Below are positions 14,131-29,849 of a stretch of DNA of 41,524 nt, one piece after another. Source of the DNA: Eubacteriales bacterium (GTDB lineage Bacteria > Bacillota > Clostridia > Oscillospirales > CAG-272); the NCBI GenBank assembly GCA_045602305.1, contig JAZSBJ010000040.1, positions 1-41,524 of the forward strand. Reading direction: 5' to 3'. Numbering within the stretch: the stretch's first letter is position 1; the number at the start of each line of letters is the position of its first letter. A program made the translations under genes and the position numbers. The notes under the pieces are model-generated. The model ran no database searches and had not been told where the DNA came from. It saw nothing but the letters and a program-made list of their open reading frames with translations.

Positions 14131-14808
14131 TCAATAATTCTCTGCGTGGATCTCGAAATAGCTCTGAGGATGTGCGCAGGTGGGGCAGAGCTCGGGTGCG
14201 GCGGTGCCGACCACAAGGTGTCCGCAGTTGCGGCACTCCCAAACCTTGACCTCGCTCTTGGCAAAGACCTCGGCAAGCTCAATGTTCTTAAGCAGGGCGC
14301 GGTATCTTTCCTCGTGGTGCTTTTCGATGGCGGCAACCAGGCGGAACTTTGCGGCGAGGTCGTGGAATCCCTCTTCCTCAGCCGTCTTGGCAAAGCCGTC
14401 GTACATATCCGTCCACTCGAAGTTTTCGCCCTCTGCGGCGTGGAGCAGGTTCTCGGCGGTGTCACCGATGCCCGCAAGCTCCTTGAACCACAGCTTAGCG
14501 TGCTCCTTCTCGTTGTCGGCGGTCTTGAGGAAGAGAGCAGCGATCTGCTCAAAGCCCTGCTTCTTGGCAACCGACGCAAAGTAGGTGTACTTGTTTCTTG
14601 CCTGCGATTCGCCTGCAAAGGCGGCTTCCAGGTTCTTCTCGGTCTTGGTGCCCGTGTACTTGGTCTTGGGCGCGGGCTTCGCTTCCTCAGCGGGGGGCGT
14701 GATGTCCTCGAGCTTGTCGCCCTTAACGCCGCAGATGGGGCATACGGGCTCAACGCCGTCCTCTACCTCGAATACAGCACGGCAAACCTTGCATTTGAAT
14801 TTTTTCAT
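14131..14808 (-). CDS. rbr: Rubrerythrin with an additional N-terminal rubredoxin-like domain
   Basis: The N-terminus has CKVC...CPIC. A Pro/Ala/Lys linker follows. The diiron four-helix bundle motifs are [24 protein letters not shown] and IEKHHEERY. The C-terminus has CRNC...CPTC. Confidence 0.9.
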
Positions 14809-14888: not shown

Positions 14889-16073
14889 TTAAAATTTACG
14901 CCAAACCATCTTGTTGACAACACCCGTGTAAGACTGAATGATCTTAACCACCTTGGTCGAAACGTTTTCTTCTACGTAGGTGGGGACGGGGATGCCGTGG
15001 TCGCCCTCACTGTTCATTGAAACGGCGGTGCCGACTGCCTGCAAAAGGCTGTTTTCGTCAATACCGGCGAGGATGAAGCAAGCCTTGTCAAGCGCCTCGG
15101 GGCGCTCGGTCGAGGTGCGGATGCAAACGGCGGGGAAGGGGTGTCCGACCGAGGTGAAGAAGGAGCTTTCCTCGGGGAGCGTACCGCTGTCCGAAATGAC
15201 GGCAAAAGCGTTCATTTGTAAACAGTTGTAGTCGTGGAAGCCAAGCGGCTCGTGCTGAATGACGCGGGAATCGAGCTTGAAGCCACTCTTTGCAAGACGG
15301 TTGCGGCTGCGCGGATGGCAGGAGTAAAGAATGGGCATATCGTACTTTTGTGCGATTTTGTTGATGGCGGTGAAAAGGCTCATAAAGTTCTTTTCGGTAT
15401 CGATGTTTTCTTCTCTGTGTGCCGAAAGAAGAATGTACTTGCCCTTCTCGAGCCCAAGACGCGCGTGAATATCGCTCGCCTCGATCTCGGCGAGGTTTTC
15501 GTGAAGCACCTCTGCCATCGGCGAGCCCGTCACGTAGGTGCGCTCCTTGGGGAGTCCGCACTCGTGCAGGTATCTGCGTGCGTGCTCGGAGTAGGCAAGG
15601 TTTACGTCCGAGATAATGTCAACGATACGGCGGTTGGTTTCCTCGGGCAGGCACTCATCCTTGCAACGGTTGCCAGCTTCCATATGGAAGATGGGAATGT
15701 GCAGTCGCTTGGCGGCGATCGCAGAGAGGCAGGAGTTGGTGTCGCCGAGCACGAGAAGCGCGTCGGGCTTGATCTGGTTCATCAGCTTAAAGGAGCAGTT
15801 GATGATGTTGCCAACGGTAGCACCCAGGTCGTCGCCCACGGCGTCCATATATACCTCGGGGGCTGCGAGCTTTAAGTCGCGGAAGAAGACGCCGTTTAAG
15901 TTGTAGTCGTAGTTTTGTCCCGTGTGGGCAAGAATGCAGTCAAAATATTTGCGGCACTTGTTGATGACGGCGGCAAGACGGATGATCTCGGGACGCGTAC
16001 CCACGATGATCAAGAGCTTAAGTCTTCCGTCGTTTTGAAAGGAAATATCGCTGTAATCAAGTTTGATGTCCAT
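14889..16073 (-). CDS. fnlC: UDP-2-acetamido-2,6-dideoxy-L-talose 2-epimerase / non-hydrolysing UDP-GlcNAc 2-epimerase family (FnlC/Cap5G/WbjD type)
   Basis: The sequence reads LKLLIIVGTRPEIIRLAAVI...HTGQNYDYNLNGVFF...DTNSCLSAIAAKRLHIPIFHMEAGNR. It is the last gene of an fnlA-fnlB-fnlC order. Confidence 0.8.
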   Translation of the reverse strand: MDIKLDYSDISFQNDGRLKLLIIVGTRPEIIRLAAVINKCRKYFDCILAHTGQNYDYNLNGVFFRDLKLAAPEVYMDAVGDDLGATVGNIINCSFKLMNQIKPDALLVLGDTNSCLSAIAAKRLHIPIFHMEAGNRCKDECLPEETNRRIVDIISDVNLAYSEHARRYLHECGLPKERTYVTGSPMAEVLHENLAEIEASDIHARLGLEKGKYILLSAHREENIDTEKNFMSLFTAINKIAQKYDMPILYSCHPRSRNRLAKSGFKLDSRVIQHEPLGFHDYNCLQMNAFAVISDSGTLPEESSFFTSVGHPFPAVCIRTSTERPEALDKACFILAGIDENSLLQAVGTAVSMNSEGDHGIPVPTYVEENVSTKVVKIIQSYTGVVNKMVWRKF

Positions 16074-16107
16074 AATAGCAGCCTTTGTTATTTTCTAAAA
16101 ATCTTTT

Positions 16108-17304
16108 TTATACCACTTCAAAAAAAGTGTCGGGGTGATTTGGGTCGAACTGCTCGTTCGCCCACATCACCGTAACGAGATTTTCGGTGTCTGAGAGGTT
16201 GATGATGTTGTGTGTGTAGCCGGGGAGCATATGGATGGCGCGGATTTCATCGCCTGAAACCTCAAAATTCAAGACCTCGTCCGTGCCGAGCTTTCGCTGT
16301 TGGATAAGTCCCTTACCGCTGACGACGATGAAGAATTCCCACTTGGTATGATGCCAATGCTGTCCCTTGGTGATGCCGGGCTTCGAGATGTTCACGGAGA
16401 ACTGTCCGCACTTTTCGGTGCGAAGCAGCTCGGTAAAGGAGCCACGCGCGTCCACGTTCATCTTTAGGGGGAAGGACGCCTTTTCCTTGGGCAGATAGGA
16501 AAGATAGGTGGAGTATAGCTTTTTTGCAAAGCTGCCGTTAGGAATCTCGGGCATCAAAAGCGTTTGGGGCTGTCCTTTAAAGGATTCGAGCAGAGAAACG
16601 ATCTCGCCGAGCGTGACCTTGTGCGTTACGGGTGCGGCACAGTATTTGCCGCCGTCACAAAGGACGGTGTCTGTGCCGTCAAAGGTGCAACGGTGCTCAC
16701 GCCCCTCAAGGGCGCATAGCATCTCATCGACAAGATCGTCGATGTAAAGAAGCTCGAGGCGCACAGACGGGTCGTTTACCGTGTAGGGCAGGTCGCAGGC
16801 AAAGGCGTTGCAAAAGGTCGCCACTGCCGAGTTGTAGTTGGGGCGGCACCATTTGCCGAAGAGGTTGGGGAAGCGGTAAACAAGCACACGGGCTCCCGTT
16901 TCTTCGGCGTAGGAGAACATAAGCTCCTCACCTGCCTTTTTGCTTCTGCCGTACTCGCTGTCGTAGCGTCCGATGCAGGTCGCTTGGATGGACGAGGAGA
17001 TCATTACGGGGCAGGTGTTTTTGTGCTTTTTGAGGGTGTCAAGGAGCGTGGAAGCAAAGCCAAAGTTGCCCGCCATAAACTCCTCAGTCGATTTTGGGCG
17101 GTTGACGCCCGCAAGGTTGAATACGAAGTCGCATTCGGCGCACGCCTCGTCAAGGAGAGAGGCGGGGGAGTCGATGTCGTATAAATAGAGCTTTTCCACC
17201 GAGAGGGCGGGGTGTGTTCTATCCTTGCCGTCCCGCACACACTCAAGCGCCGCTGCGAGGTTCTTTCCAACGAATCCCGCGGCACCCGTAATCAAAATCT
17301 TCAT
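16108..17304 (-). CDS. fnlB: Two-domain SDR plus cupin reductase/epimerase (FnlB/CapF/WbjC type)
   Basis: The N-terminal Rossmann motif is MKILITGAAGFVGKNL. The C-terminal cupin region reads ARGSFTELL...GITKGQHWHHTKWEFFIVVSG. Its start overlaps the fnlA stop in TAATG. Confidence 0.8.
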   Translation of the reverse strand: MKILITGAAGFVGKNLAAALECVRDGKDRTHPALSVEKLYLYDIDSPASLLDEACAECDFVFNLAGVNRPKSTEEFMAGNFGFASTLLDTLKKHKNTCPVMISSSIQATCIGRYDSEYGRSKKAGEELMFSYAEETGARVLVYRFPNLFGKWCRPNYNSAVATFCNAFACDLPYTVNDPSVRLELLYIDDLVDEMLCALEGREHRCTFDGTDTVLCDGGKYCAAPVTHKVTLGEIVSLLESFKGQPQTLLMPEIPNGSFAKKLYSTYLSYLPKEKASFPLKMNVDARGSFTELLRTEKCGQFSVNISKPGITKGQHWHHTKWEFFIVVSGKGLIQQRKLGTDEVLNFEVSGDEIRAIHMLPGYTHNIINLSDTENLVTVMWANEQFDPNHPDTFFEVV

Positions 17305-18353
17305 TACAGTCTTCCGTCCTTTGCGAGCTCTTCTTGGATATACGCAAGAGAAGCGATCTTTGCTTTGGTTTCTTCTACGCTGAGAAGCTTCGTGTTGTTG
17401 GAGTTGAACTCGGTCAAGGTGTTGCGCTCTGCGTCGCCCTTGTTAAAGTACTTGTCGTAGTTGAGTCCGCGCTTGTCGCAGGGCACACGGTAGAAGTTGC
17501 CCATATCGATGGCGTTTGCACATTCCTCGTTGGTGAGCAGGGTTTCGTACATCTTCTCGCCGTGGCGAATGCCGATGACCTTGATTGCGTTCTTGTCGCC
17601 GCCAAACAGCTCACAAACCGCCTCAGCCTGCGTTTGAATGGTGCAAGCGGGTGCCTTCTGTACGAGGATATCACCGCTTTCGCCGTGCTCAAAGGCGAAG
17701 AGCACGAGGTCAACTGCCTCGTCAAGCGACATAATGAAGCGCGTCATCGTGCCGTCGGTGATGGTGATGGGGTTGCCGCTTCTGATCTGCTCAATCCAAA
17801 GCGGAATGACAGAGCCGCGCGAGCACATTACGTTGCCGTAACGGGTGCAGCAGATCTTAGTCTTTTCGGGGGATACGGTGCGGGATTTGGCGACGATGAC
17901 CTTTTCCATCATTGCCTTGGACGTACCCATTGCGTTGACGGGATATGCCGCCTTATCGGTCGAGAGGCAAACGACGTTCTTAACGCCCGCTTCGATCGCG
18001 GCGGTCAAAACGTTCTCGGTGCCGAGCACGTTGGTCTTGACCGCCTCAATGGGGAAAAATTCGCACGAGGGTACCTGCTTGTGCGCTGCCGCGTGGAAGA
18101 TGTAGTCTACACCGTGCATCGCGTTCTTCACCGAAGCGAGATCGCGCACGTCGCCGATGTAAAACTTGATCTTTTCCGCCACCTCGGGCATTTTTGCCTG
18201 AAATTCGTGACGCATATCGTCCTGCTTCTTCTCATCGCGCGAGAAGATGCGGATCTCCCCGATATCGGTACGCAAGAAGCGGTTGAGCACCGCATTTCCA
18301 AAGCTACCGGTACCGCCGGTGATCAGTAGAGTTTTTCCAGTAAACAAAGACAT
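17304..18353 (-). CDS. fnlA: UDP-GlcNAc 4,6-dehydratase/5-epimerase (FnlA/CapE/WbjB type)
   Basis: The start is the ATG at 18353 after GGGAGG. The sequence reads MSLFTGKTLLITGGTGSFGNAVLNRFL...IRIFSRDEKKQDDM, which is typical of the CapE/FnlA/PseB clade. Confidence 0.85.
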   Translation of the reverse strand: MSLFTGKTLLITGGTGSFGNAVLNRFLRTDIGEIRIFSRDEKKQDDMRHEFQAKMPEVAEKIKFYIGDVRDLASVKNAMHGVDYIFHAAAHKQVPSCEFFPIEAVKTNVLGTENVLTAAIEAGVKNVVCLSTDKAAYPVNAMGTSKAMMEKVIVAKSRTVSPEKTKICCTRYGNVMCSRGSVIPLWIEQIRSGNPITITDGTMTRFIMSLDEAVDLVLFAFEHGESGDILVQKAPACTIQTQAEAVCELFGGDKNAIKVIGIRHGEKMYETLLTNEECANAIDMGNFYRVPCDKRGLNYDKYFNKGDAERNTLTEFNSNNTKLLSVEETKAKIASLAYIQEELAKDGRL

Positions 18354-18371
18354 ATGGTTGCCTCCCAAATA

Positions 18372-18399
18372 ATTATCGAAATCTTTTTAGTTTTTTCAA
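18372..18399 (-). promoter_or_regulatory. Possible internal promoter ahead of fnlABC (TTGAAA-N16-GATAAT)
   Basis: On the minus strand, TTGAAA is at 18399-18394, the spacer is 16 nt, and GATAAT is at 18377-18372. It lies in the 63-bp gap upstream of fnlA. Confidence 0.35.
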
Positions 18400-18416
18400 A
18401 TGAATAGAAACGCTGT

Positions 18417-19133
18417 TTACACAAGGCGTGCGACAGCCGCAACGACCTTGGCAAGATCCTCGGGATTGTCAATCTCGGTGCAAAGACGATCCTTTACATC
18501 GAGAATGTGGATGGGACACGTGTCCGTGATCTCGTTGAGTGCGACCTCGGCGTAGACGCCCGTCTTTCCCGCCTCGCAAAAGTCAATGATATGGTCAAGC
18601 CAGGTATTCCACTCGGCCTTGTTGAGCTTGTAGAGCGCTTGGGCTTCCATTGCGTTCTCAAAAAACTCAACGCCAACCTTTTTAACCATACCGTCAATGA
18701 CGACTGCCTTGAAGTCCTTTTCGGGCAGGGGAAGGGTCGACGAAACCTTCATACAGCTGTGGGGAAAGCGGAGTGCATCTTCCAGCACCGAGGCTTCAAA
18801 GACGAGGTCGCCGTGCAAAAGAAGGATGTCCTCATCCTTTAACACCTCGCGCGCGCAGTAGATGGAGTAGATATAGTTGGTTTTATCGTAAATGGGATTT
18901 TTTACGAAGGTAAAGTGAATGGGGAGCGCGAGAGAATGGCAGTAGTCAACGAGGATCTCGTCAAAATATCCCGTTGTCATTACCACCTCGCGAATGCCCG
19001 CCTCAGAGAGAAGGCGAAGCTGACGGGAAAGAATGGAGTCGGTAGCGGAAACGTCGGTCATACATTTGGGATGCTCACTCGTTAGGACACCCATACGGCG
19101 TCCGAGTCCCGAGTTTAAAATTAAAGCTTTCAT
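18417..19133 (-). CDS. LicC-like nucleotidyltransferase (phospho-alcohol or phosphonate cytidylyltransferase family)
   Basis: The N-terminal NTP-binding loop is MKALILNSGLGRRMG. The overall layout resembles LicC (YSIY, LLLHGDLVF, C-terminal EIDNPEDL). Length is 238 aa. Confidence 0.6.
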   Translation of the reverse strand: MKALILNSGLGRRMGVLTSEHPKCMTDVSATDSILSRQLRLLSEAGIREVVMTTGYFDEILVDYCHSLALPIHFTFVKNPIYDKTNYIYSIYCAREVLKDEDILLLHGDLVFEASVLEDALRFPHSCMKVSSTLPLPEKDFKAVVIDGMVKKVGVEFFENAMEAQALYKLNKAEWNTWLDHIIDFCEAGKTGVYAEVALNEITDTCPIHILDVKDRLCTEIDNPEDLAKVVAAVARLV

Positions 19134-19155
19134 TGCTTGTCCTCCACGGTGAACC

Positions 19156-20325
19156 TTATTTTTTCTGTAATAGCTTCATACGAATTCTACCCATCTTGCG
19201 ACGCACGACAGCAGCTAGTCTTTCGCTTTTGCTTTCTTGTCGCCAGATGCGGTCCTTTTCGGCACGAAGTGCCGCGAGCGCTTCTTGGGCACGCTCCCAA
19301 TCGGGATAGTAATATACTTGATCCAGAGGAGTCTTCACCTTTCGGTCGACATCCGTTACCGTTTTGCTTACGATGTTGCAGTTTTCATTCGGGTCGAAGC
19401 TTAAATCATACAGCTCTTCTGTTTTAGATTCTTTGTTATATATGTATTTGAAGTTTTCGCGAATGATGGCGAGCTTGCGGTGAAGCTGCTTGTAATATGC
19501 ACAGTCTGCAAAGACAAATTCATCCTTGGGGATCTTCTCCTGCAAGACGTCATAAATGTGTATGTTGGATAAAGGTGTATCGCAAATGTCAAGCCCGTCT
19601 ATTCTTGGGGCGATTAGGGGGATATTGATGGCGGGCTCATATACGTCGAAGCCGTAGCAGATCTTGTTTTTGATCCCGTTCATATTTCCGTGATCGGCGG
19701 AGATGAAGATGGCGTCGTCTGAAAAATGTTCTCTTACGTGACCGATCACGCGGTCAAACAGATCCATATCACTGCCGTAGCAGTTTCTTCCCAAAAGGAC
19801 GTGAGGCAAATGAATCCAGAGAAATAGCTTTCCGTCTGTGCTGTTTGCGACGGATTCGATAGATTCCTTGATGGATGCTACGGTTTTATCGGCTAGCACG
19901 TCATCGATTGGAATATCTCCCGCATACATATGGTGCGCGCCGACGGTTTGATTGATGTTGATAAGATTGAATTTTGTGTTTTTGCCATAGCACTGAGAAT
20001 AGGTTTTCGCCATCTTTATCCATTTTTCATCCCAAATGATCTGGCAATCGTATCCTTGCTCGTAGAGCTGATCGAAAACTGTGTTTTCCATCTCTTTTTC
20101 TATGGCAACGTAGCGTTCGTTTTCGGTTTCATAAGAATTTTTTTGCGTGAACATACCGATGAAGGACATTGCCGTTGAGGGGGCGCAGGTGTAAAATCTG
20201 TTAAAAACGGTGCCCTTGCTTGCAAGCTCGGATAAGTTTGGCATAATATTTGCCTTGTTACCGTATATCGGCAAATAACTTTTACAAAGCGCGTCCTTGG
20301 TAAGCAAAACGATTCTGTCTTTCAT
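19156..20325 (-). CDS. Soluble alkaline-phosphatase-superfamily (sulfatase-fold) protein, not a canonical sulfatase
   Basis: The start is the ATG at 20325 after AAGGAG (MKDRIVLLTKDAL...). The nucleophile region CAPSTAMSF lacks the Arg of the CxPxR motif. The distal metal site FISADHGN is present. No N-terminal TM segment or signal peptide is visible. Confidence 0.6.
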   Translation of the reverse strand: MKDRIVLLTKDALCKSYLPIYGNKANIMPNLSELASKGTVFNRFYTCAPSTAMSFIGMFTQKNSYETENERYVAIEKEMENTVFDQLYEQGYDCQIIWDEKWIKMAKTYSQCYGKNTKFNLININQTVGAHHMYAGDIPIDDVLADKTVASIKESIESVANSTDGKLFLWIHLPHVLLGRNCYGSDMDLFDRVIGHVREHFSDDAIFISADHGNMNGIKNKICYGFDVYEPAINIPLIAPRIDGLDICDTPLSNIHIYDVLQEKIPKDEFVFADCAYYKQLHRKLAIIRENFKYIYNKESKTEELYDLSFDPNENCNIVSKTVTDVDRKVKTPLDQVYYYPDWERAQEALAALRAEKDRIWRQESKSERLAAVVRRKMGRIRMKLLQKK

Positions 20326-20401
20326 AGGTTTGACTCCTTTTTGATACGCAATCGTCCGATTGCACATTTCAGTTTGAAAATTACAGCTTTATCTGCCCTT
20401 A

Positions 20402-21919
20402 TTATGCTTTACCCTGCGGTTTCTTTTTGAAAAACTTTTTACCCACGATCGTTTTAAGCTCGCTGCGATAGCCGATGAGCGATACGCAAACGAGGATGAC
20501 GAGGGTGATACCGAACACGGCAAAGCCGTTCAATGCCCAATGGAAATAACCGTTGATTGCCTCAAGCGGCAAAAGAAGGTTGGAAAGCAAGACAACCCCA
20601 AGGCAGGGGACGAAAAATAGAACGACAGTTTTCCCAAAGCGTCTGAGCGGACGGTTTAGGATGTTTTTTCTGAGATAAATGACCTGTGCGATCAAGCGGT
20701 AAACTATGGCGATAAGAAAGCTGAGCGCAACGCCTGCAAGGTCGAATTTGTGAACGAGAATGAGAGAAAGGACGATGTTGATGCTCACCTCGATATAGGC
20801 ATATTTTGCGGTCTGCTTAAAATGCCCCGCCGCGTATGTCGCATTGATATAGGGCTCGCGGAAGCAGTATAGCATTTCTGCAGTCATAAGAAGGATGCCG
20901 AATAGAGGTTGAATATAGTTGGCGTCCGTGACATTCGCCGTGTACACCTTTATGAAGGGGACGACGAGGACGATGCCGCACGAGAACAAGAGAACAGAGA
21001 GAAACGCCATACCGAACTCGTAAAGATTGAACGCCCTGTTGGCTTCCTTGATATCGTCCTTCGCCAAGACGCTGCCAAAGGAAGGGAGAAGCGTAGAAGC
21101 AATCGAAACGGCAAAGTTACGAATGGAGTTGGCGACCATAAGGTAGACCGAAAAAACGGATACCATAGCGAGCGTTGAAAAGACGGTGAGTACGATGACG
21201 CTGATGTTTTTATTGATAAAGTGCGCCAAGGTGTGCCCAAAGCCCGACCAGCGTTGATTTAACGCATCGGTGTCGCGCGGGATCTTCTTGTCGAGCTTAA
21301 AGCGCTTTCGCGTATAAAGCGAGAATGCGACGGGCTGCAGGAAAAGAACGGTGGCACTCAGCGCCTTCATAATGATTAAGTCGGGGAAAATGCGGGAGAA
21401 TACGATAACGAGCACCATATTGAGCAGCATAACGCCGGCTTTTGTCAAGGAAAGGAAGTAATGGTTTTGAGATGCGCGGATCAAGACTTGGTGCGTTAAG
21501 GAGAAGAAATATTGCGTAAAAAGATTGGTCGCAAGAACCAAGACAAGCACTAAAATATAGGGATAAGAGAAGGTGGACTTTACGACCAAGGGATAAACGA
21601 GAGCCAAAACGGCGGCGTAAACGATATAGATAAGCCCGATCTGCTTGAAAAAGCGTTGTGTTGCATTAAAAATCGCGCTGATCTTTTCTTGGTTGTTTTC
21701 GCGTAACGGCTTGTATAAAGAAGCCATAACGACGCTGCTTAAGCCACCCTCAAGCAGCGAAATATAGCTCAAGCACTGGTTGATCGAGGTGGCAAGTCCG
21801 TTTGCCTCGGAGCCGAGAACGGAAATGAAAATTTTTGGGACGATCAGTCCGTTGAGTATCGCAACCAGCTCTAAAAGAGAGGTTGCGAGCAGATTTCTTC
21901 GAATAATTTTTTTGCTCAT
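20402..21919 (-). CDS. wzx: Wzx-type oligosaccharide flippase (MOP superfamily)
   Basis: About 505 aa and highly hydrophobic, with roughly 12-14 helices. The N-terminus reads KKIIRRNLLATSLLELVAILNGLIVPKIFISVLGSEANGL. I prefer the ATG at 21919, because the ATG at 21931 abuts the SD. Confidence 0.8.
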   Translation of the reverse strand: MSKKIIRRNLLATSLLELVAILNGLIVPKIFISVLGSEANGLATSINQCLSYISLLEGGLSSVVMASLYKPLRENNQEKISAIFNATQRFFKQIGLIYIVYAAVLALVYPLVVKSTFSYPYILVLVLVLATNLFTQYFFSLTHQVLIRASQNHYFLSLTKAGVMLLNMVLVIVFSRIFPDLIIMKALSATVLFLQPVAFSLYTRKRFKLDKKIPRDTDALNQRWSGFGHTLAHFINKNISVIVLTVFSTLAMVSVFSVYLMVANSIRNFAVSIASTLLPSFGSVLAKDDIKEANRAFNLYEFGMAFLSVLLFSCGIVLVVPFIKVYTANVTDANYIQPLFGILLMTAEMLYCFREPYINATYAAGHFKQTAKYAYIEVSINIVLSLILVHKFDLAGVALSFLIAIVYRLIAQVIYLRKNILNRPLRRFGKTVVLFFVPCLGVVLLSNLLLPLEAINGYFHWALNGFAVFGITLVILVCVSLIGYRSELKTIVGKKFFKKKPQGKA

Positions 21920-21961
21920 ATCGTGGAGCATCTCCTTGCTTTAGACGGAATGTGCGGCAAA

Positions 21962-22939
21962 TCAACCGACGAATACGCCGAATTTTCTTGCGAGTCTTAT
22001 GGTGGGGCGTTCAATATGCAAAAGAATTGCCCAACACAAGAGGCGGTATGTTTTCTTTAAACGTTTTTCCTTCAAGATAGCCTTTTTGTTTTTTCGAATC
22101 TCTTGATTGACCGTTTGGCGCTCGCTAATCTTGCCTTTTGTGACGGCAATGCGAGAGGCAAGCACCAGAAGATTCTTGTAGTAGAGAAAATCGGCATCCT
22201 TTGCAAGCGCGGGGAACTGTACAAGGCATCGGTCGCGCACATCTTTAAAGTTGTAATAAAGTCCCATCGTTTTGGGGGCAAAGGCAGATTTTGACGTGCT
22301 TCCCGCACGTTGAAAATAGTAATAAAAGGGCTTTGCACAATGCACGACGCTTTCGGCCCTGGTCAGTGCATCGAATACGAAGGGAACGTCCTCGCAGATG
22401 TACCCGAGAGGGTACCGCACGTCCTTCAAAACCTCTCGCTTGAACAGTTTGTCGCAAGAGGAAGAGTCGATGGCACGGTAGGTGAGGAATCGCTTGACCG
22501 CTTCCTCGGTATTCATTACGGTTTCTTCGTCTAAGTGAAAGCTCTGAGATTCGATGGCGGTATCGCCTTTCACGGTGAATCTCCCGCACACGGCAATGTC
22601 GCAACCGTTTCTTTGCAAGGCGGACAAAAGCACCTCGTACATATTGGGAGCGATCCAGTCATCGCTGTCGACAAAACCGATATAATCTCCTTTTGCCATA
22701 GAGATGCCGCGATTTCTTGCGCTGGCTTGTCCCCCATTCGGCTGGTGAACGACGACAATGCGAGAGTCCTTGGCACCGTATGCGTCGCAAAGATTTCCCG
22801 ACGCGTCCGTAGATCCATCGTTGATTAAAAGAATCTCAAGATTTTCGTGGGTTTGGGAAAGGATGGAACGGATACATTTTTCAAAATACGGCTCAACGTT
22901 GTAGACGGGAACGATTATGCTGATCAGGGGCAGGTTCAT
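21962..22939 (-). CDS. Glycosyltransferase family 2
   Basis: The sequence reads ISIIVPVYNVEPYFEKCIRSILSQT...LLINDGSTD...NGGQASARNRGI...YIGFVDSDDW. Confidence 0.9.
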   Translation of the reverse strand: MNLPLISIIVPVYNVEPYFEKCIRSILSQTHENLEILLINDGSTDASGNLCDAYGAKDSRIVVVHQPNGGQASARNRGISMAKGDYIGFVDSDDWIAPNMYEVLLSALQRNGCDIAVCGRFTVKGDTAIESQSFHLDEETVMNTEEAVKRFLTYRAIDSSSCDKLFKREVLKDVRYPLGYICEDVPFVFDALTRAESVVHCAKPFYYYFQRAGSTSKSAFAPKTMGLYYNFKDVRDRCLVQFPALAKDADFLYYKNLLVLASRIAVTKGKISERQTVNQEIRKNKKAILKEKRLKKTYRLLCWAILLHIERPTIRLARKFGVFVG

Positions 22940-24125
22940 CGTTTTTTCCTTCTTTCTTATCCTCTGTTTTGCTGTCTAATAGCGCTTTTCCGCAAAAGAT
23001 CGCCAAAAGAAAATACAGGGTGTAGTCTAAGGCTCCGGTGATGAGGGATGCTTCCATCGTCATATGCAAAAGTCCGGCAATGAAGCAGGCGAAGGGGACG
23101 CAAGACAAACGTTTTTCTTTGTTTTCATTCAAAAGCATACGGCCTGTGCTAATCAAGCCGATGAGGAAAAACACGGCGGTCGGCAATGAAAAATCCCAAG
23201 CAATATCAAGCATTGTATTATGGGCGCCGAGTTCTTCGCTCAGACTGTGTGCGATGGTTTGCCCTATCTTCATTGAAAAGGGCTCGTTCAAAACGGTTTC
23301 TACGACCGTCGGCCAAATTTTTTCTCGTCCCGTCCAAGCGGAAGATCCCATAAACGTGAAGTCAACGCCGAGCTTTTCGACAAGCCAAGTTACGATAAAC
23401 GGCAGGATGGCGAAAAGAAGCATAGCCACGGAAAAAACAGCCTTTTTCCAGCGGGGAAGGAGAAAGAGCAACAGGCAAAGCCCCATACAAAGGATGCAAG
23501 CGGAAAAGGCAGTACGGCTACCCGTACGGAACGCTCCGTAAAGAAGACCGATGGAAAGCACCCACCAAAAGACATTTTTCTTTTTTTCAATGCACAAGAA
23601 CGAGAAAATGCCCAGGAAAACGGACATATAAAGAAGACCGCTTTGGTTCTCGTTTTGCGTGTAAAGCAAGAGCATTCCGTCGCGATAGCTGGACGGAATA
23701 AATGCAAAGACCACAAGAAGCGCCGCGACAGCCGTTAGTAAATAAAAGAAGACTTTTGCATCCTTAGATACGGGGCGTATGGCGCGGCTTGAGAAGAGAA
23801 GCGGGAACGCGAGCAAGAAGGTGATGGACGATTCAAGCTGCGATCTGTATACAAGCAAGAGCTTGAGAGCGATCCAAATGAAGAGAAGTAAAAATGCAAG
23901 GAAAAGCAAAAACGAAAAGGATGTTTGCTTTAGTTGCAGCTTTTGGAGAATGCAGTATGCCAAGAACAGAAATACAAAAACGTATAAGAACTTAAAAAGG
24001 GTTGACGCGATGGAAGAAAATCCCAATAATTGGAAAATATGCCGAACGCAAAGCAAAACGGCAATCAGGAAAAAGACCGGATTGCTTTTCTCGGTGTTCT
24101 TTTGTGATTGAAGCGATTTTGGCAT
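22893..24125 (-). CDS. wzy: Wzy-type polymerase / O-antigen ligase-like membrane protein
   Basis: 410 aa with about 10-11 hydrophobic helices and one larger loop (GSSAWTGREKIWPTVVE). It sits between glycosyltransferases. Its 3' end overlaps the GT2 start by 47 nt. Confidence 0.7.
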   Translation of the reverse strand: MPKSLQSQKNTEKSNPVFFLIAVLLCVRHIFQLLGFSSIASTLFKFLYVFVFLFLAYCILQKLQLKQTSFSFLLFLAFLLLFIWIALKLLLVYRSQLESSITFLLAFPLLFSSRAIRPVSKDAKVFFYLLTAVAALLVVFAFIPSSYRDGMLLLYTQNENQSGLLYMSVFLGIFSFLCIEKKKNVFWWVLSIGLLYGAFRTGSRTAFSACILCMGLCLLLFLLPRWKKAVFSVAMLLFAILPFIVTWLVEKLGVDFTFMGSSAWTGREKIWPTVVETVLNEPFSMKIGQTIAHSLSEELGAHNTMLDIAWDFSLPTAVFFLIGLISTGRMLLNENKEKRLSCVPFACFIAGLLHMTMEASLITGALDYTLYFLLAIFCGKALLDSKTEDKKEGKNDEPAPDQHNRSRLQR

Positions 24126-24216: not shown

Positions 24217-25371
24217 TTAGGTGTTCTTTTGATACAGGGCGATATACTGATCTAGCATTTTTGCTTTGGAAAAATCGGCGTGCGCGATTTGGGCACCGTC
24301 AAGACGCGCCTTTACGGCGTTGAGGTCCCCTTGCGCTACGACGTTTTCTTTTGGCACGCTTTCGGGACTGCCGCCCGTGTTATACGTAATAACGGGCGTG
24401 CCGCACGCCTGTGCCTCGAGATTTACGGTGGGATAGTTGTCGTTGTAGGTGAGATTTAAAAACACGTCTGCGGCGGTGTAAATTTCCGCAAGCTCTGCCG
24501 TGTTGTTCGTTCTGGTGATTCCCAAAATCTTAGGCGGAAGCTCTGCTTTTTGTTTTTCTGTCAACCCGACAAGAACGATTTTGTACGAATCATCAAGCAT
24601 CTCGGCGAGCCGGACGAAATCGTAGAGGCCCTTGCTTCGGCTCCACGCGCTTGCTACTCCCAAAATGATTTTTTTGTTCTCAAGGGCGTGCCTTTGACGA
24701 AAATCTCCCGAGGTGGGCTTAAAGATCGAAGTGTCGATCCCGTTATTGATGATCTCAACGGGGAATTTTTCGAGAAACGATTGGCGCACAAGGTCTGCCA
24801 GCCAAAGAGAGGGCGTTACAACCGTTGCGTTTTCAAGAGAGGTAAACATTTTCTTCTTGACTTGAAAATTGTGCTTGCTCCGATCAACGATGCTCTTAGG
24901 ATAAGCGGCGTGCTTGTGACAGTTGTAGCACCCCTCTTTCCATTTGTCGCATCCAATAAGATTGCAACAGTGCCCGGTAAATGCCCAGCAGTCGTGAAGG
25001 GTCCAAACGACGGGCTTTTTTGAAGCCTTAAGATAGTCGAACAGGGGACGGAGATGAAGATAATAGCCGTGTAGATTGTGCAGATGGATAATGTCGGGGT
25101 CGTATGCCTTGACCCACCGGATAAACTTTTCGGTTGCACGACCGCTTCCAAAGCCTGAAGCATCCCAAAGACGAGCCTTCAGCCCGTGAAGCTTTACAGA
25201 AAGGGACGATCCGATACGGATGGCACGGACGGCGTGCTTGGGGGGCACGGATTCTCTGCCAAAGGCAATTTTGCATTCGTGTCCCAACGCCTCAAGCGAT
25301 TCGGCAAGATCGGTGCATATTCTTCCCGTGCTGCGAATGCCGCACACGGAGTTTATCATCAATATCCTCAT
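24217..25371 (-). CDS. Glycosyltransferase family 4 (Cys-rich HDCW..TGHC..C..C..C subtype)
   Basis: The sequence includes MRILMINSVCG, IIHLHNLHGYY, WTLHDCWAFTGHCCNLIGCDKWKEGCYNCHKH and, in the C-terminal GT-B half, NLEAQACGTPVI. Confidence 0.8.
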   Translation of the reverse strand: MRILMINSVCGIRSTGRICTDLAESLEALGHECKIAFGRESVPPKHAVRAIRIGSSLSVKLHGLKARLWDASGFGSGRATEKFIRWVKAYDPDIIHLHNLHGYYLHLRPLFDYLKASKKPVVWTLHDCWAFTGHCCNLIGCDKWKEGCYNCHKHAAYPKSIVDRSKHNFQVKKKMFTSLENATVVTPSLWLADLVRQSFLEKFPVEIINNGIDTSIFKPTSGDFRQRHALENKKIILGVASAWSRSKGLYDFVRLAEMLDDSYKIVLVGLTEKQKAELPPKILGITRTNNTAELAEIYTAADVFLNLTYNDNYPTVNLEAQACGTPVITYNTGGSPESVPKENVVAQGDLNAVKARLDGAQIAHADFSKAKMLDQYIALYQKNT

Positions 25372-25380
25372 TGACGCTCC

Positions 25381-26580
25381 TTATTGCATAATTATTTTAT
25401 ATGCCTTTTCGACCGTGTAGTTTTCGTGGAGATAGCGGATGCCTGCCTCACGCATCGCGTCGGCGTCGGCGGCGAGGGCTTGTGCAACGCAAGAGGAGAA
25501 AGCGGTGACGTCGTTCGACTCGCAAGAGAAGCCGAAGCCGCCGTCCTCAATAACCTGCCCGACGTCGGTGTTCGGGTCGGTTGCAGCAAGCACGGGAAGC
25601 CCTGCTTGAATATAGGAGAGAAGTCTTGACGGGAAGTTCGGGATGGTAAAGCGGTGGTCAAGGAAGATCATACCGATGTCGCACGCGGCGACCATCTTGT
25701 CGTAATCCGCCTTGGGCAGGCGCTTAAGGAGCTTTGCGTTCGTAAATTTTTCAGCGTCAAAGAATGCGGCGAGCTTTGCGTACTCCGTGCCGTCGCCAAC
25801 GACGAGAAAATACGCGTCAGCGTTGTTCTTTTCTGCCTTCAAGCACTCCATAAGAAAGGGAATGCCCTGCGGGCGACCGAGGTTGCCGCCGTATACGAAC
25901 ACCTTTTTGTCAAGGGGAATGCCGTATTTTTCGCGCAGAGCGACACGCTCTGCGGCTGTTACGCGCATATCCTGCGGCTCAATGGCGTTGGGGCAGATTT
26001 CGACCTTTGCACGATCCACCTCGGGATTGTGCTTCAGCACATAATCCACGTTCGCCTGTGACATACAGCCGATGCGGTCGGAGATGGCGTAGAGCTTCTT
26101 TTCCTTCTTGCGGAAATACTTGTAAAGAATGCCCTTAACGCCCGATTTCGACATCATACCGATGTCAACCGCGTTTTGCGGGAAAATGTCCTTTAAGAGC
26201 AGATAGGTCCTTGCCCCATCGCGCTTTTTGACGAATTTTACGGTGTCATAATGCGTGATGGGGGGCGTGGGATAGAGGACGAGATCAAATTTCACGTCCC
26301 CGAAATGCTTTTTGATCGCCTTGATATAAAGACGGGGAAGCATCACGGTGGTGATGCCCTTTTGAATGGGGTTCGCCTTTTTGTTTTTGCCGATCTTTAC
26401 GCGCAAAACGTGATAACCGTCCTCGTTTGTGAGGTTGGTTTCTGCATTTGCCGCTTTTTCAAGACCGCATACGATATAAATGTTGTGCCCGTTTCTCTTG
26501 AACTCGTGTAAAAGGTCGAGCGAAATGGAGTGCGCGCTCGCGTGAGAGATCGCACTGATGGAAGCATACAAGATGTTCAT
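25381..26580 (-). CDS. Glycosyltransferase family 4, WbuB-like (often an L-FucNAc/6-deoxy-HexNAc transferase)
   Basis: The start is the ATG at 26580 (MNILYASISAISHASAHSISLDLLHEF...). The region YPTPPITHYDTVKFVKKRDGARTYLLLKDIFPQNAVDIG is typical of WbuB-type enzymes found with fnlABC. Confidence 0.7.
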   Translation of the reverse strand: MNILYASISAISHASAHSISLDLLHEFKRNGHNIYIVCGLEKAANAETNLTNEDGYHVLRVKIGKNKKANPIQKGITTVMLPRLYIKAIKKHFGDVKFDLVLYPTPPITHYDTVKFVKKRDGARTYLLLKDIFPQNAVDIGMMSKSGVKGILYKYFRKKEKKLYAISDRIGCMSQANVDYVLKHNPEVDRAKVEICPNAIEPQDMRVTAAERVALREKYGIPLDKKVFVYGGNLGRPQGIPFLMECLKAEKNNADAYFLVVGDGTEYAKLAAFFDAEKFTNAKLLKRLPKADYDKMVAACDIGMIFLDHRFTIPNFPSRLLSYIQAGLPVLAATDPNTDVGQVIEDGGFGFSCESNDVTAFSSCVAQALAADADAMREAGIRYLHENYTVEKAYKIIMQ

Positions 26581-26590
26581 AACGTGTCCT

Positions 26591-29811: not shown

Positions 29812-29849
29812 AGACAAAGACCTCGTCTTTTTTTACTTTTATCTATGCT

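What the first reader, a model, noticed from the sequence alone, without database searches (positions are those of the whole stretch)
18417..20325. LicC-like nucleotidyltransferase paired with a soluble sulfatase-fold protein that cannot be a sulfatase: candidate phospho-substituent decoration module
The 238-aa protein has the LicC/PntC layout, i.e. cytidylyltransferases that activate phosphocholine, aminoethylphosphonate and similar compounds. The genes that normally accompany LicC are all absent: kinase LicA, transporter LicB, LicD-type transferase and PEP mutase. Its immediate partner, 22 bp upstream, is a 389-aa alkaline-phosphatase-superfamily protein without a signal peptide or TM anchor. 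Its nucleophile motif reads CAPST instead of CxPxR, so formylglycine maturation and sulfate-ester hydrolysis are unlikely. The distal metal site (ADHGN) is retained. Membrane-bound members of this fold (LtaS, EptA, GacH) transfer phospho-alcohol groups onto glycans. A cytoplasmic member acting on a CDP-activated donor or on the lipid-linked repeat unit would be an undescribed variant. Both genes sit between wzx and fnlA, at the border of the low-GC core.
Basis: partly seen in the sequence, partly recalled or inferred. Interest (0 to 1): 0.65.

Follow-up and report, generated by a model that had tools for sequence, protein, structure and literature searches.

The report
Cytidylyltransferase plus sulfatase-fold candidate phospho-group transferase
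Two adjacent genes in a gut bacterium's surface-sugar locus probably attach a small phosphorus-containing group to the polysaccharide, and the attaching enzyme appears to be an uncharacterised soluble relative of sulfatases standing where the usual LicD enzyme normally sits.

Summary
Both genes are real and intact. The nucleotidyltransferase (NT) is 18417-19133(-), 238 aa. The sulfatase-fold protein (SU) is 19156-20325(-), 389 aa. Each has its own ribosome-binding site.

NT belongs structurally to the LicC/PntC/IPCT group. It is 68% identical to the N-terminal domain of about 670-aa NT + cytidylyltransferase + PEP mutase proteins. Those proteins head hydroxyethylphosphonate-type operons (Fe-ADH, phosphonopyruvate decarboxylase) in gut and rumen glycan loci.

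The window has no PEP mutase, decarboxylase, LicA, LicD or TagD.

SU belongs to a compact family of about 400-aa proteins with an S1-sulfatase fold and no membrane segment. That Cys occurs in only 2 of 89 relatives. The sulfatase nucleophile aligns with the Thr (Ser/Thr in all 89), and Met and Tyr/Phe replace the Pro and Arg of CxPxR. SU is therefore not a formylglycine sulfatase.

In 13 of 33 loci the gene right after SU is a cytidylyltransferase, of three unrelated types. One locus has SU-NT-SU-TagD in tandem. A syntenic relative has LicD exactly where the window has SU.

Best reading (about 0.5, untested): SU transfers the cytidylyl-activated phospho or phosphono group onto the lipid-linked repeat unit. 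The group's identity is unresolved.

The parts
19156..20325 (-). SU: 389-aa soluble sulfatase-fold protein, the candidate phospho(no)-group transferase. The longest ORF extends to 20367, but the start is at 20325.
   Evidence: Pfam Sulfatase 1.5e-16. AF2 model pLDDT 95.7. Foldseek top 50 are all S1 sulfatases. The family has at least 750 members of 385-415 aa. No membrane segment.
20334..20338 (-). AGGAG ribosome-binding site, 8 nt before the SU start codon at 20325
   Evidence: Sequence read directly. Homologues begin at MKD....
20164..20184 (-). APSTAMS, the active-site loop of SU (residues 48-54). Thr51 (20173-20175) aligns with the Cys/Ser nucleophile of sulfatases. Met53 replaces Pro, and Phe55, just after the loop, replaces Arg.
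   Evidence: phmmer and profile alignments to 3ed4, 7oz8, 7stt and 7pth. Column counts over 89 sequences.
20185..20187 (-). It is not conserved in the family.
   Evidence: The column reads A77, V5, C2, S2, T2 in 89 sequences.
19684..19698 (-). ADHGN, the distal metal-site motif of SU (Asp211 and His212 invariant). It pairs with the invariant Lys10-Asp11 at 20293-20298.
18417..19133 (-). NT: 238-aa stand-alone cytidylyltransferase of the LicC/PntC/IPCT fold
   Evidence: PDB phmmer best hit LicC 1jyk, 8.6e-8. Foldseek: LicC TM 0.80, PntC TM 0.82, IPCT. 68% identical to the N-terminal domain of NT-CT-Ppm proteins.
19141..19145 (-). GGAGG ribosome-binding site, 7 nt before the NT start codon
19089..19118 (-). 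LNSGLGRRMG, the nucleotide-binding G-x-G-x-R loop of NT
   Evidence: Invariant in 29 relatives. Aligned with the same loop of LicC and PntC.
18813..18815 (-). His107 of NT. It is invariant in the clade and sits where the alignment places Glu104 of T. denticola PntC, the residue that contacts the substrate amine (Asp105 is its counterpart in LicC, per PMC6697681).
   Evidence: Alignment to 6pd1. Residue roles from PMC6697681. Invariance.
18456..18479 (-). TEIDNPED, the acidic metal-binding motif near the C-terminus of NT
   Evidence: Aligned with teidspadl of the T. maritima enzyme 4jd0. E220 and D222 are invariant.
20402..21931 (-). Wzx-like multi-pass membrane protein (509 aa) immediately upstream. 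Presumed flippase of the finished repeat unit.
   Evidence: No Pfam hit. 33% identical over 94-98% of its length to 508-516-aa neighbours of SU in L020 and L007, with weaker matches to the flippase-like cluster next to SU in other loci.
14889..18353 (-). fnlA (17304-18353), fnlB/wbcJ-like (16108-17304) and fnlC/wecB-like (14889-16073): a UDP-L-FucNAc-type sugar pathway, downstream in the same operon
   Evidence: NCBIfam FnlA 5.6e-155, WbcJ-type reductase 1.8e-98, WecB 6e-63. GGGAGG lies before ATG 18353.

Best explanation
The two genes form a 'activate, then transfer' module inside a Wzx/Wzy-type polysaccharide locus.

NT takes CTP and a small phosphate monoester or phosphonate and makes the CDP- or CMP-linked donor. 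This step is inferred from homology.

SU is a cytoplasmic enzyme, probably held at the membrane surface by its basic amphipathic C-terminal helices. I propose that its Ser/Thr51 attacks the donor's distal phosphorus, with help from the metal bound by Asp11, Asp211 and His212. CMP leaves and a covalent phospho(no)-enzyme forms. SU then passes the group to a sugar hydroxyl of the undecaprenyl-diphosphate-linked repeat unit, before Wzx flips that unit. This step is inferred from gene context and from the chemistry of the alkaline-phosphatase superfamily.

In this reading SU does the job that LicD or TagF-like enzymes do in related loci.

The transferred group is not settled. 2-Hydroxyethylphosphonate or a close analogue is the leading candidate, because this NT clade is mostly fused to PEP mutase. 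The window encodes no phosphonate synthesis, however. The substrate would have to come from elsewhere in the genome or the gut, or else it is an ordinary phosphorylated metabolite.
For: NT:
- Its fold and sequence are closest to LicC, PntC and IPCT.
- It is 68% identical to the first domain of tri-domain NT-CT-Ppm proteins. In a representative of these (L003) the Ppm domain scores above the TIGR02320 cutoff and the Ppd encoded nearby scores above the TIGR03297 cutoff.

SU is not a sulfatase:
- Ser/Thr sits at the nucleophile position. The Pro and Arg of CxPxR are replaced by an invariant Met and by Tyr/Phe. The metal ligands are kept.

SU is cytoplasmic:
- It has no hydrophobic segment, and its last 30 residues carry a net charge of +9.

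Gene context:
- In 13 of 33 SU loci the next gene carries a cytidylyltransferase domain (binomial 4e-7). The types are LicC-like NT-CT-Ppm, LicC-LicA and TagD-like.
- L038 has SU-NT-SU-TagD in tandem. Its TagD scores above the NCBIfam cutoff.
- Window and L035 are 82.5% identical in DNA from fnlC through NT. The match ends exactly at the NT start codon. Upstream lies SU in the window and LicD in L035.
- In an unbiased set of NT-seeded loci, the only recurrent families in the slot upstream of NT are LicD (11), SU (3) and TagF-like (3). LicD and TagF-like are known CDP-alcohol phosphotransferase families.
- Six HEP-operon loci with at least 4 kb of flank on each side have SU and no LicD.
- The window has no LicD or TagF-like gene, which leaves SU as the only candidate transferase.
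- In a neighbour-joining tree of SU proteins, partner type clusters by clade.
Against: - There are no biochemical data for any family member, and no paper in the searched library describes the family.
- Sequence and fold place SU with hydrolytic S1 sulfatases and phosphonate monoester hydrolases, not with known transferases.
- About 10 of 34 SU loci show no cytidylyltransferase within 10 kb, so a nucleotide-linked donor is not proven.
- 13 of 31 well-covered HEP loci have neither LicD nor SU. 'SU is the only transferase left' is therefore a weak argument.
- SU and LicD co-occur in several loci (L001, L009, L011, L038).
- The window encodes no route to any dedicated NT substrate.
- All known transferases of this superfamily (LtaS, EptA, GacH, BcsG) are membrane-anchored, act outside the cytoplasm and use lipid donors (my own knowledge).
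Confidence: 0.5

Rival explanations
1. SU is a hydrolase in the same pathway: a phosphodiesterase, phosphatase or phosphonate-monoester hydrolase. It would trim or edit a phosphorylated intermediate or the cytidylyl donor, in the way FomD hydrolyses a CMP-phosphonate. An unidentified enzyme would do the actual transfer.
For: All close structural and sequence relatives are hydrolases: S1 sulfatases, and PMH 4upk at 9e-6. 13 of 31 well-covered HEP loci lack both LicD and SU, so other transferases must exist. SU co-occurs with LicD in L001, L009, L011 and L038.
Against: Hydrolysing a donor made by the adjacent gene would be futile. Such a role does not explain why SU replaces LicD at an identical position. 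It also does not explain the two SU genes each paired with its own cytidylyltransferase in L038. The window would be left with an activated donor and no transferase.
Confidence: 0.2
2. SU is a transferase but works independently of NT. It would take phosphoglycerol or phosphoethanolamine from inner-leaflet phospholipids, as LtaS, EptA and GacH do outside the cell. Its adjacency to cytidylyltransferases would only reflect shared residence in glycan loci.
For: About 10 of 34 SU loci have no cytidylyltransferase within 10 kb. The basic amphipathic C-terminus suggests binding to the membrane surface. There is a weak NCBIfam match to phosphoethanolamine transferase, E 0.0016.
Against: Immediate adjacency to cytidylyltransferases is about five times the background rate. 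The tandem SU-NT-SU-TagD arrangement and the clustering of partner type in the SU tree point to a functional link. No LtaS or EptA appeared among the listed fold or profile hits (top 50 and top 60).
Confidence: 0.15
3. SU makes the substrate of NT rather than using its product. It would act as a phosphomutase or phosphotransferase that generates the phosphate monoester.
For: The window lacks any kinase or mutase for an NT substrate. Some LicD-bearing relatives carry a kinase-like gene that SU loci lack: L035 (APH, weak) and L122 (Choline_kinase, weak). Phosphomutases exist in the superfamily (my own knowledge).
Against: In at least 13 loci SU sits beside a complete Ppm-Ppd-Fe-ADH route that already supplies the phosphonate. 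In L038 an SU is paired with TagD, whose substrate, glycerol-3-phosphate, is a housekeeping metabolite. This role would also leave no transferase in the window.
Confidence: 0.07
4. The pair is a decaying remnant of a phosphonate operon, tri-domain to NT+CT to NT only, and no longer functions.
For: The nearest SU relative (L001) has NT+CT without Ppm, and the window has NT only. No substrate pathway lies in the window.
Against: Both ORFs are intact, have good ribosome-binding sites and keep every invariant family residue. Stand-alone NTs of 237-242 aa at 70-88% identity are abundant. The SU-NT pair recurs in L001 and L038, and near-identical copies occur in several gut metagenomes.
Confidence: 0.05
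5. SU is a genuine sulfatase acting on a sulfated glycan.
For: Pfam Sulfatase hit and S1-sulfatase fold.
Against: SU has no C/S-x-P/A-x-R motif. Met and Tyr/Phe replace the Pro and Arg needed for formylglycine formation in all 89 relatives. It is cytoplasmic and lies in a biosynthetic, not a degradative, locus.
Confidence: 0.02

Closest known systems
LicC / PntC / IPCT cytidylyltransferases (PF12804; PDB 1JYK, 6PD1, 4JD0, 2XME)
   Same: Same fold (TM 0.77-0.82). NT has the same G-x-G-x-R loop and C-terminal acidic metal motif. It is of similar size to LicC and IPCT (PntC is solved as a larger fusion) and lies in a glycan locus. Its relatives are fused to PEP mutase, as described for PntC in PMC6697681.
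   Different: Only 18-21% identical to the solved enzymes. An invariant His stands where PntC and LicC have the Glu/Asp that contacts the substrate amine, so the substrate is probably neither AEP nor phosphocholine. In its usual tri-domain form it sits beside a second, Fom1/TagD-type cytidylyltransferase domain. In the window no licA, licB, licD or ppm accompanies it.
LicD and TagF-like (Glyphos_transf) CDP-alcohol phosphotransferases
   Same: Same genomic slot directly upstream of this NT clade, and the same inferred job: moving the activated phospho-group onto the glycan. SU and LicD are exchanged between otherwise syntenic alleles.
   Different: No sequence or fold relationship. SU would act through a covalent Ser/Thr-phospho(no) intermediate on a metal site. 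This is functional analogy, not family membership.
S1 formylglycine sulfatases and phosphonate monoester hydrolases (PF00884)
   Same: Closest relatives by profile (choline sulfatase 4.5e-15) and by fold (TM 0.6-0.7). SU has the same N-terminal Asp, the DHG metal motif and the C-terminal subdomain.
   Different: The nucleophile is Ser/Thr in an S-[ST]-A-M-S-[YF] loop, without the Pro and Arg needed for formylglycine. The first Asp of the 'DD' pair is Lys. SU has no signal peptide, is about 100 residues shorter, and lies in a biosynthetic glycan locus.
LtaS / EptA / MCR-1 / GacH / BcsG phospho-alcohol transferases
   Same: Same superfamily. These enzymes have a Thr (or Ser) nucleophile with an Asp/His metal site and transfer glycerol-phosphate or phosphoethanolamine onto glycans through a covalent intermediate. 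This is the mechanism proposed for SU.
   Different: Those enzymes have N-terminal membrane domains, act outside the cytoplasm and use phospholipid donors. SU is soluble and cytoplasmic, is linked to cytidylyltransferases, and these enzymes were not among the listed fold or profile hits (top 50 and top 60).
Fom1-type cytidylyltransferase-PEP mutase fusions and hydroxyethylphosphonate pathways
   Same: Relatives of NT are fused to a PF01467 domain plus Ppm, followed by Fe-ADH and Ppd. This is the enzyme set that makes and cytidylylates 2-hydroxyethylphosphonate.
   Different: Here the context is a cell-surface glycan, not an antibiotic cluster. An extra LicC-like domain is present. The window keeps only that extra domain.

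Membership tests
LicC/PntC-type cytidylyltransferase (NT) | Rossmann-like nucleotidyltransferase fold closest to LicC, PntC and IPCT | tested here: met
   Foldseek: 1jyk E 1e-15, TM 0.80; 6pd1 TM 0.82; 4jd0; 2xme. phmmer best PDB hit is LicC.
LicC/PntC-type cytidylyltransferase (NT) | N-terminal G-x-G-x-R nucleotide loop and C-terminal E-x-D metal motif | tested here: met
   LNSGLGRRMG and TEIDNPED are present and invariant.
LicC (phosphocholine-specific) | Acidic residue contacting the quaternary or primary amine (LicC D105, PntC E104) | tested here: not met
   The alignment to 6pd1 puts an invariant His107 at the position of PntC E104, whose counterpart in LicC is D105 per PMC6697681.
LicC (lic1 pathway) | Companion licA kinase, licB transporter and licD transferase | tested here: not met
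   No LicD or LicC-LicA homologue in the window by tblastn, and no such Pfam domains in the locus genes.
PntC (phosphonate-specific) | Fusion to, or close linkage with, PEP mutase and the Ppd pathway | tested here: inconclusive
   Not met in the window. Met in most relatives at 63-75% identity. Stand-alone forms occur both with and without Ppm nearby.
LicC/PntC-type cytidylyltransferase (NT) | CTP-dependent cytidylylation of a phosphate monoester or phosphonate | not testable with these tools
   Needs an enzyme assay.
S1 formylglycine sulfatase (SU) | Sulfatase fold with C-terminal subdomain | tested here: met
   Foldseek top 50 are all S1 sulfatases, E down to 3e-18. Profile against PDB gives 4.5e-15.
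S1 formylglycine sulfatase (SU) | C/S-x-P/A-x-R maturation motif at the nucleophile | tested here: not met
   The aligned residues are [ST]-A-M-S-[YF] in the 89 relatives.
S1 formylglycine sulfatase (SU) | Metal ligands: N-terminal Asp-Asp and distal Asp-His/Asn | tested here: inconclusive
   Asp11, Asp211 and His212 are invariant, but the first Asp is an invariant Lys10. The model coordinates could not be inspected.
S1 formylglycine sulfatase (SU) | Sulfate-ester hydrolysis | not testable with these tools
   Needs an assay.
LtaS/EptA-type phospho-alcohol transferase (SU) | Thr/Ser nucleophile with Asp/His metal site | tested here: met
   Residue 51 is S55/T34, S50 is invariant, and D211-H212 are invariant.
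LtaS/EptA-type phospho-alcohol transferase (SU) | N-terminal multi-pass membrane domain with an extracytoplasmic catalytic domain | tested here: not met
   Highest hydropathy 0.87 and no signal peptide. All full-length family members are 385-440 aa.
LtaS/EptA-type phospho-alcohol transferase (SU) | Closest sequence or fold relatives are LtaS, EptA or MCR | tested here: not met
   None among the 60 listed profile hits or the 50 listed Foldseek hits. Only a weak NCBIfam hit, E 0.0016.
Functional class: CDP/CMP-donor phosphotransferase (like LicD or TagF) | Conserved linkage to a cytidylyltransferase gene, and positional exchange with LicD or TagF-like genes | tested here: met
   13 of 33 with a cytidylyltransferase immediately downstream, p 4e-7. 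L038 tandem pairs. SU-LicD swap at the NT start. Slot census.
Functional class: CDP/CMP-donor phosphotransferase (like LicD or TagF) | Transfer of the phospho(no)-group from a cytidylyl donor to a glycan acceptor | not testable with these tools
   Needs in vitro reconstitution or genetics together with 31P-NMR.

The most novel reading that the evidence does not exclude
The SU family supplies the missing transferase step of bacterial phosphonate tailoring. In this reading SU is a cytoplasmic sulfatase-fold enzyme that takes CMP-hydroxyethylphosphonate, or in sister clades CDP-glycerol, CDP-choline or similar donors. It forms a covalent phosphonyl-Ser/Thr intermediate and installs the group on lipid-linked glycan repeat units. 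It would be the first nucleotide-donor transferase in the sulfatase fold and a non-homologous replacement for LicD.
Probability: 0.3. Interest if true: 0.8.

Novelty: new variant of a known kind. Interest (0 to 1): 0.62.

Why it matters
Phospho- and phosphono-substituents such as phosphocholine, glycerol phosphate, AEP and HEP on surface glycans shape immune recognition and phage or host interactions.

The step that moves activated phosphonates onto glycans has not been worked out. PMC6697681 calls the steps after Ppm 'enigmatic'.

A compact, easily expressed family of soluble 400-aa proteins, sitting next to the activating enzymes, is a directly testable candidate for that step.

If confirmed, three things would follow:
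- The alkaline-phosphatase/sulfatase superfamily would gain a cytoplasmic transferase chemistry that uses nucleotide donors.
- Hundreds of genes now labelled 'sulfatase-like hydrolase/transferase' in gut and rumen genomes could be re-annotated.
- Glycoengineers would have a new tool for adding phosphonate or phosphodiester groups to sugars.

The results also show that hydroxyethylphosphonate-type operons are common in gut and rumen glycan loci.

Tried and rejected
- Cys of CAPST as nucleophile: rejected, because it is not conserved and the alignments place the nucleophile four residues later.
- SU as an LtaS/EptA homologue: rejected. Fold and profile searches return only S1 sulfatases and PMHs.
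- Hidden Ppm, Ppd, Fe-ADH, LicD, LicA, IspD or TagD in the window: none found by tblastn.
- A remnant of the CT or Ppm domain after the NT stop: there is no room (48 bp before the fnlA ORF) and no similarity. NT ends at the domain boundary, as in the stand-alone form in L033.
- AEP as the phosphonate in related operons: unlikely. Those operons carry Fe-ADH rather than an AEP transaminase.
- A third recurrent transferase family in HEP loci that lack both LicD and SU: BLAST clustering found none. Pfam showed TagF-like proteins in some loci and a sulfotransferase-like protein in two.
- Fused SU proteins (Rosetta-stone evidence): none among the 1.84 billion representatives. All full-length members are 385-440 aa.
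- Literature searches for any characterised member or for 'sulfatase + cytidylyltransferase/phosphonate': only a passing mention of sulfatases in Selenomonas phosphonate clusters. PMC3870699 is not held in the library.
- RNA evidence: only DNA runs from gut metagenomes hold the sequence.


Full report
**1. What is in the sequence**

On the minus strand a 238-aa ORF (18417-19133) follows a sulfatase-fold ORF by 22 bp. The longest reading of the sulfatase-fold ORF starts at 20367. An AGGAG box sits 8 nt before the ATG at 20325, and all homologues begin at the corresponding MKD. The protein is therefore 389 aa, 19156-20325. GGAGG precedes the start of the 238-aa gene.

The pair lies in a Wzx/Wzy-type glycan locus on the same strand:

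| Coordinates | Gene |
|---|---|
| 28552-29817 | DegT aminotransferase |
| 27847-28527 | Initiating Bac_transf |
| 26591-27829 | ATP-grasp ligase |
| 24217-26610 | Two GT1/GT4 glycosyltransferases |
| 22893-24125 | Wzy-like |
| 21962-22939 | GT2 |
| 20402-21931 | 509-aa Wzx-like membrane protein |
| 19156-20325 | SU |
| 18417-19133 | NT |
| 14889-18353 | fnlA, fnlB-like, fnlC-like |
| 14131-14808 | Rubrerythrin (outside the locus) |

GC drops to 0.45-0.48 over 19-25 kb. The DNA is found in gut metagenomes, including goat gut.

**2. The nucleotidyltransferase (NT)**

Pfam gives only the generic NTP_transf_3 and NTP_transferase domains. The best solved relatives by sequence are:
- LicC (1jyk, 8.6e-8);
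- a T. maritima inositol-1-phosphate cytidylyltransferase (4jd0);
- the PntC-AEPT fusion (6pd1);
- archaeal IPCT.

An AlphaFold model (pLDDT 90) matches LicC (TM 0.80), PntC (TM 0.82) and IPCT ahead of the sugar-1-phosphate enzymes.

The new information comes from relatives. NT is 68% identical to the N-terminal domain of ~669-aa proteins built from three domains:
- LicC-like NT (PF12804);
- CTP_transf_like (PF01467);
- PEP mutase.

In the L003 representative the mutase domain passes the TIGR02320 cutoff. The operon continues with an Fe-dependent alcohol dehydrogenase and a phosphonopyruvate decarboxylase that passes TIGR03297. No AEP transaminase is adjacent. This is the enzyme set for 2-hydroxyethylphosphonate (HEP). 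The PF01467-Ppm arrangement is the one known from Fom1, which cytidylylates HEP (PMC6697681). Triple fusions were counted there as 2.8% of all Ppm proteins, but their function was not studied.

The window's NT ends exactly at the domain boundary, as does a stand-alone copy in L033. Stand-alone forms of 237-242 aa at 70-88% identity are numerous, and ~377-aa NT+CT forms also occur.

Where the alignment places Glu104 of T. denticola PntC, which contacts the substrate amine (its LicC counterpart is Asp105, per PMC6697681), this clade has an invariant His107. This argues against AEP or phosphocholine. It is compatible with a hydroxyl-bearing or anionic substrate, but it does not identify the substrate.

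**3. The sulfatase-fold protein (SU)**

Pfam Sulfatase matches the N-terminal half (1.5e-16). The family is discrete:
- At least 750 proteins of 385-415 aa were found in the word-indexed search. Where they carry a source name, it is only 'sulfatase-like hydrolase/transferase'.
- Only 80 representatives score E ≤ 1e-30 among 1.84 billion proteins, and scores then fall to those of generic sulfatases. There are no fused forms.

The AlphaFold model is confident (pLDDT 95.7). Its 50 best PDB neighbours are all S1 sulfatases, with choline sulfatase at TM 0.70. A family profile finds only S1 sulfatases and phosphonate monoester hydrolases among its 60 listed PDB hits. No LtaS or EptA appears there.

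Four independent sulfatase alignments (3ed4, 7oz8, 7stt and the C54S choline sulfatase 7pth) put the nucleophile on Thr51, the last residue of 'CAPST'. Column counts over 89 relatives are:

| Position | Residues found | Note |
|---|---|---|
| 47 (the window's Cys) | A77, V5, C2, S2, T2 | Not conserved |
| 50 | Ser in all 89 | Invariant |
| 51 | S55 / T34 | Aligns with the sulfatase nucleophile |
| 53 | Met in all 89 | Sulfatases have Pro here |
| 55 | Y55 / F32 | Sulfatases have Arg here |

Lys10-Asp11, His172, His175, Asp211-His212-Gly-Asn and Lys221 are invariant or nearly so.

The enzyme therefore keeps a metal-assisted Ser/Thr nucleophile site, typical of phosphoryl-transfer members of the superfamily. 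It cannot be matured to formylglycine.

SU has no hydrophobic segment (highest 19-residue hydropathy 0.87). It ends in two amphipathic helices, and its last 30 residues carry a net charge of +9. This suggests a cytoplasmic protein that docks on the membrane surface.

**4. Gene context of the SU family**

A scan of species-representative genomes returned 34 loci. Most are Clostridia, with some Bacteroidaceae, Prevotellaceae, Sphaerochaetaceae, Victivallaceae and Bacilli. All lie in glycan loci.

In 13 of 33 loci the gene directly downstream of SU carries a cytidylyltransferase domain:

| Downstream gene | Loci |
|---|---|
| NT-CT-Ppm | 8 |
| NT-CT | 1 (L001) |
| CT-Ppm | 1 (L022) |
| LicC-LicA fusion | 1 (L016) |
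| TagD-like CT | 2 (L008, L028) |

Against a background of 7.6% cytidylyltransferase-bearing genes in these same loci, the binomial probability is 4e-7. The loci share ancestry, so this figure overstates independence.

Further loci have such a gene one to four genes away. About ten show none within 10 kb. In a neighbour-joining tree of SU proteins, the type of partner clusters by clade.

L038 is the most telling locus. Its order is GT1, SU (389), NT (241), SU (401), TagD (136), fnlA. That TagD scores above the TIGR01518 cutoff. The locus thus holds two SU genes, each followed by its own cytidylyltransferase.

**5. The LicD swap**

L035 carries an NT 87% identical to the window's and has the same right flank. 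BLASTN gives one continuous 82.5% match from window 14889 to 19133 (fnlC, fnlB, fnlA, NT). The match stops exactly at the NT start codon. Upstream, L035 has a 272-aa LicD where the window has SU.

Among 80 metagenome loci seeded with NT, not with SU, the families that recur in the slot directly upstream of NT are:
- LicD, 11 loci;
- SU, 3 loci;
- TagF-like Glyphos_transf, 3 loci.

Almost everything else in that slot is a singleton, apart from a few small clusters of two or three.

LicD and TagF-like enzymes are the established transferases for CDP-activated phospho-alcohols. SU therefore occupies the 'transferase' position.

Six HEP-operon loci with at least 4 kb on each side have SU and no LicD. 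Sixteen have LicD and no SU. A few have both. Thirteen have neither. The last figure shows that the census of transferases is incomplete, and it weakens any argument by elimination.

**6. Mechanism proposed**

What is shown:
- Two intact, co-oriented genes.
- NT has the LicC/PntC fold.
- SU has a sulfatase fold with a Ser/Thr nucleophile and no formylglycine motif.
- SU lacks export signals.
- SU is linked to cytidylyltransferases at well above the background rate.
- SU and LicD exchange positions between syntenic alleles.

What is inferred:
- NT makes a CDP- or CMP-linked donor.
- SU attacks the donor's distal phosphorus with Ser/Thr51, or with the invariant Ser50. CMP leaves, and a covalent phospho(no)-enzyme forms.
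- SU passes the group to a hydroxyl of the Und-PP-linked repeat unit before Wzx export.

The chemistry parallels LtaS, EptA and GacH. The donor and the cell compartment differ.

The identity of the group is open:
- HEP or an analogue is favoured by the Ppm fusions of this NT clade.
- The window, L035, L038, L121 and L122 have no Ppm within reach.
- In Fom1 it is the PF01467 domain, not a LicC-like one, that handles HEP.
- NT may therefore activate a different phosphorylated compound that the cell already has.

**7. Rivals**

- A hydrolytic role fits SU's ancestry and the loci that also carry LicD. It makes little sense next to the gene that builds the donor.
- A lipid-donor transferase role fits the loci without a cytidylyltransferase. 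It does not explain the adjacency statistics or L038.
- A substrate-making role conflicts with loci that already encode complete HEP synthesis.
- Decay conflicts with the intact, conserved sequences and the abundance of stand-alone NT.
- True sulfatase activity is excluded by the missing maturation motif.

**8. Novelty**

The module type, cytidylyl activation followed by phosphotransfer, is known. The partner is not. I found no paper that characterises this family. The only related remark concerns 'multiple sulfatases' in Selenomonas phosphonate clusters (PMC8942020).

I class the finding as a new variant of a known kind. There is a realistic chance (about 0.3) that it is the missing phosphonyl-transferase step of phosphonoglycan synthesis.

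Noticed in passing
L003 11244-15499; also L010, L014, L026 and most of L039-L118: Operons of a tri-domain NT(PF12804)-CT(PF01467)-PEP mutase protein plus Fe-ADH plus phosphonopyruvate decarboxylase, with no AEP transaminase beside them. This hydroxyethylphosphonate-type pathway is very common in gut and rumen glycan loci. Why two cytidylyltransferase domains are needed is unexplained.
   Followed up: partly
L038 8820-12344: Tandem SU(389)-NT(241)-SU(401)-TagD(136) directly upstream of fnlA: two sulfatase-fold paralogues, each followed by a different cytidylyltransferase.
   Followed up: partly
L119 8544-9581 and L097 3593-4654: A 345-353-aa protein occupies the slot upstream of NT in two HEP loci. 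The L119 copy gives a weak Sulfotransfer_1 match. It may be a further analogous group transferase.
   Followed up: no
L049 5443-6618, L062 5729-6988, L101 1139-2353: TagF-like CDP-glycerol glycerophosphotransferase homologues sit directly upstream of the NT-CT-Ppm gene, which hints at polymer-type (teichoic-acid-like) use of the activated phosphonate.
   Followed up: partly
L059 7001-9286, L067 7001-9286, L046 2124-4421, L053 701-2278; L058 6587-13085: Other fusion variants: NT+CT+Fe-ADH in one ~761-aa protein, and a locus (L058) with two PEP mutase copies plus an extra 298-aa NT.
   Followed up: no
window 26591-27829: An ATP-grasp ligase (L-amino-acid-ligase-like C-terminus) lies inside the glycan locus next to the initiating transferase. 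It might amidate a uronic acid or add an amino acid to the glycan.
   Followed up: no
window 18351-18368: The longest fnlA ORF starts at TTG 18368. A GGGAGG box followed by ATG 18353 indicates the shorter start.
   Followed up: yes
window 20185-20187: SU of the window has Cys47 where 77 of 89 relatives have Ala, four residues before the aligned nucleophile. Its significance is unknown.
   Followed up: partly
window 22893-22939: The Wzy-like ORF and the GT2 ORF overlap by 47 bp as called. The GT2 start may lie further downstream.
   Followed up: no
window 29974-31098: An aldo/keto reductase fused to a 4Fe-4S dicluster domain lies just outside the glycan locus. Its relation to the locus is unknown.
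   Followed up: no
L035 2298-3269 and L122 686-1750: LicD-bearing loci with a stand-alone NT and no Ppm carry a kinase-like gene (weak APH or Choline_kinase hits). The SU-bearing window lacks such a gene. This may bear on what NT's substrate is.
   Followed up: no
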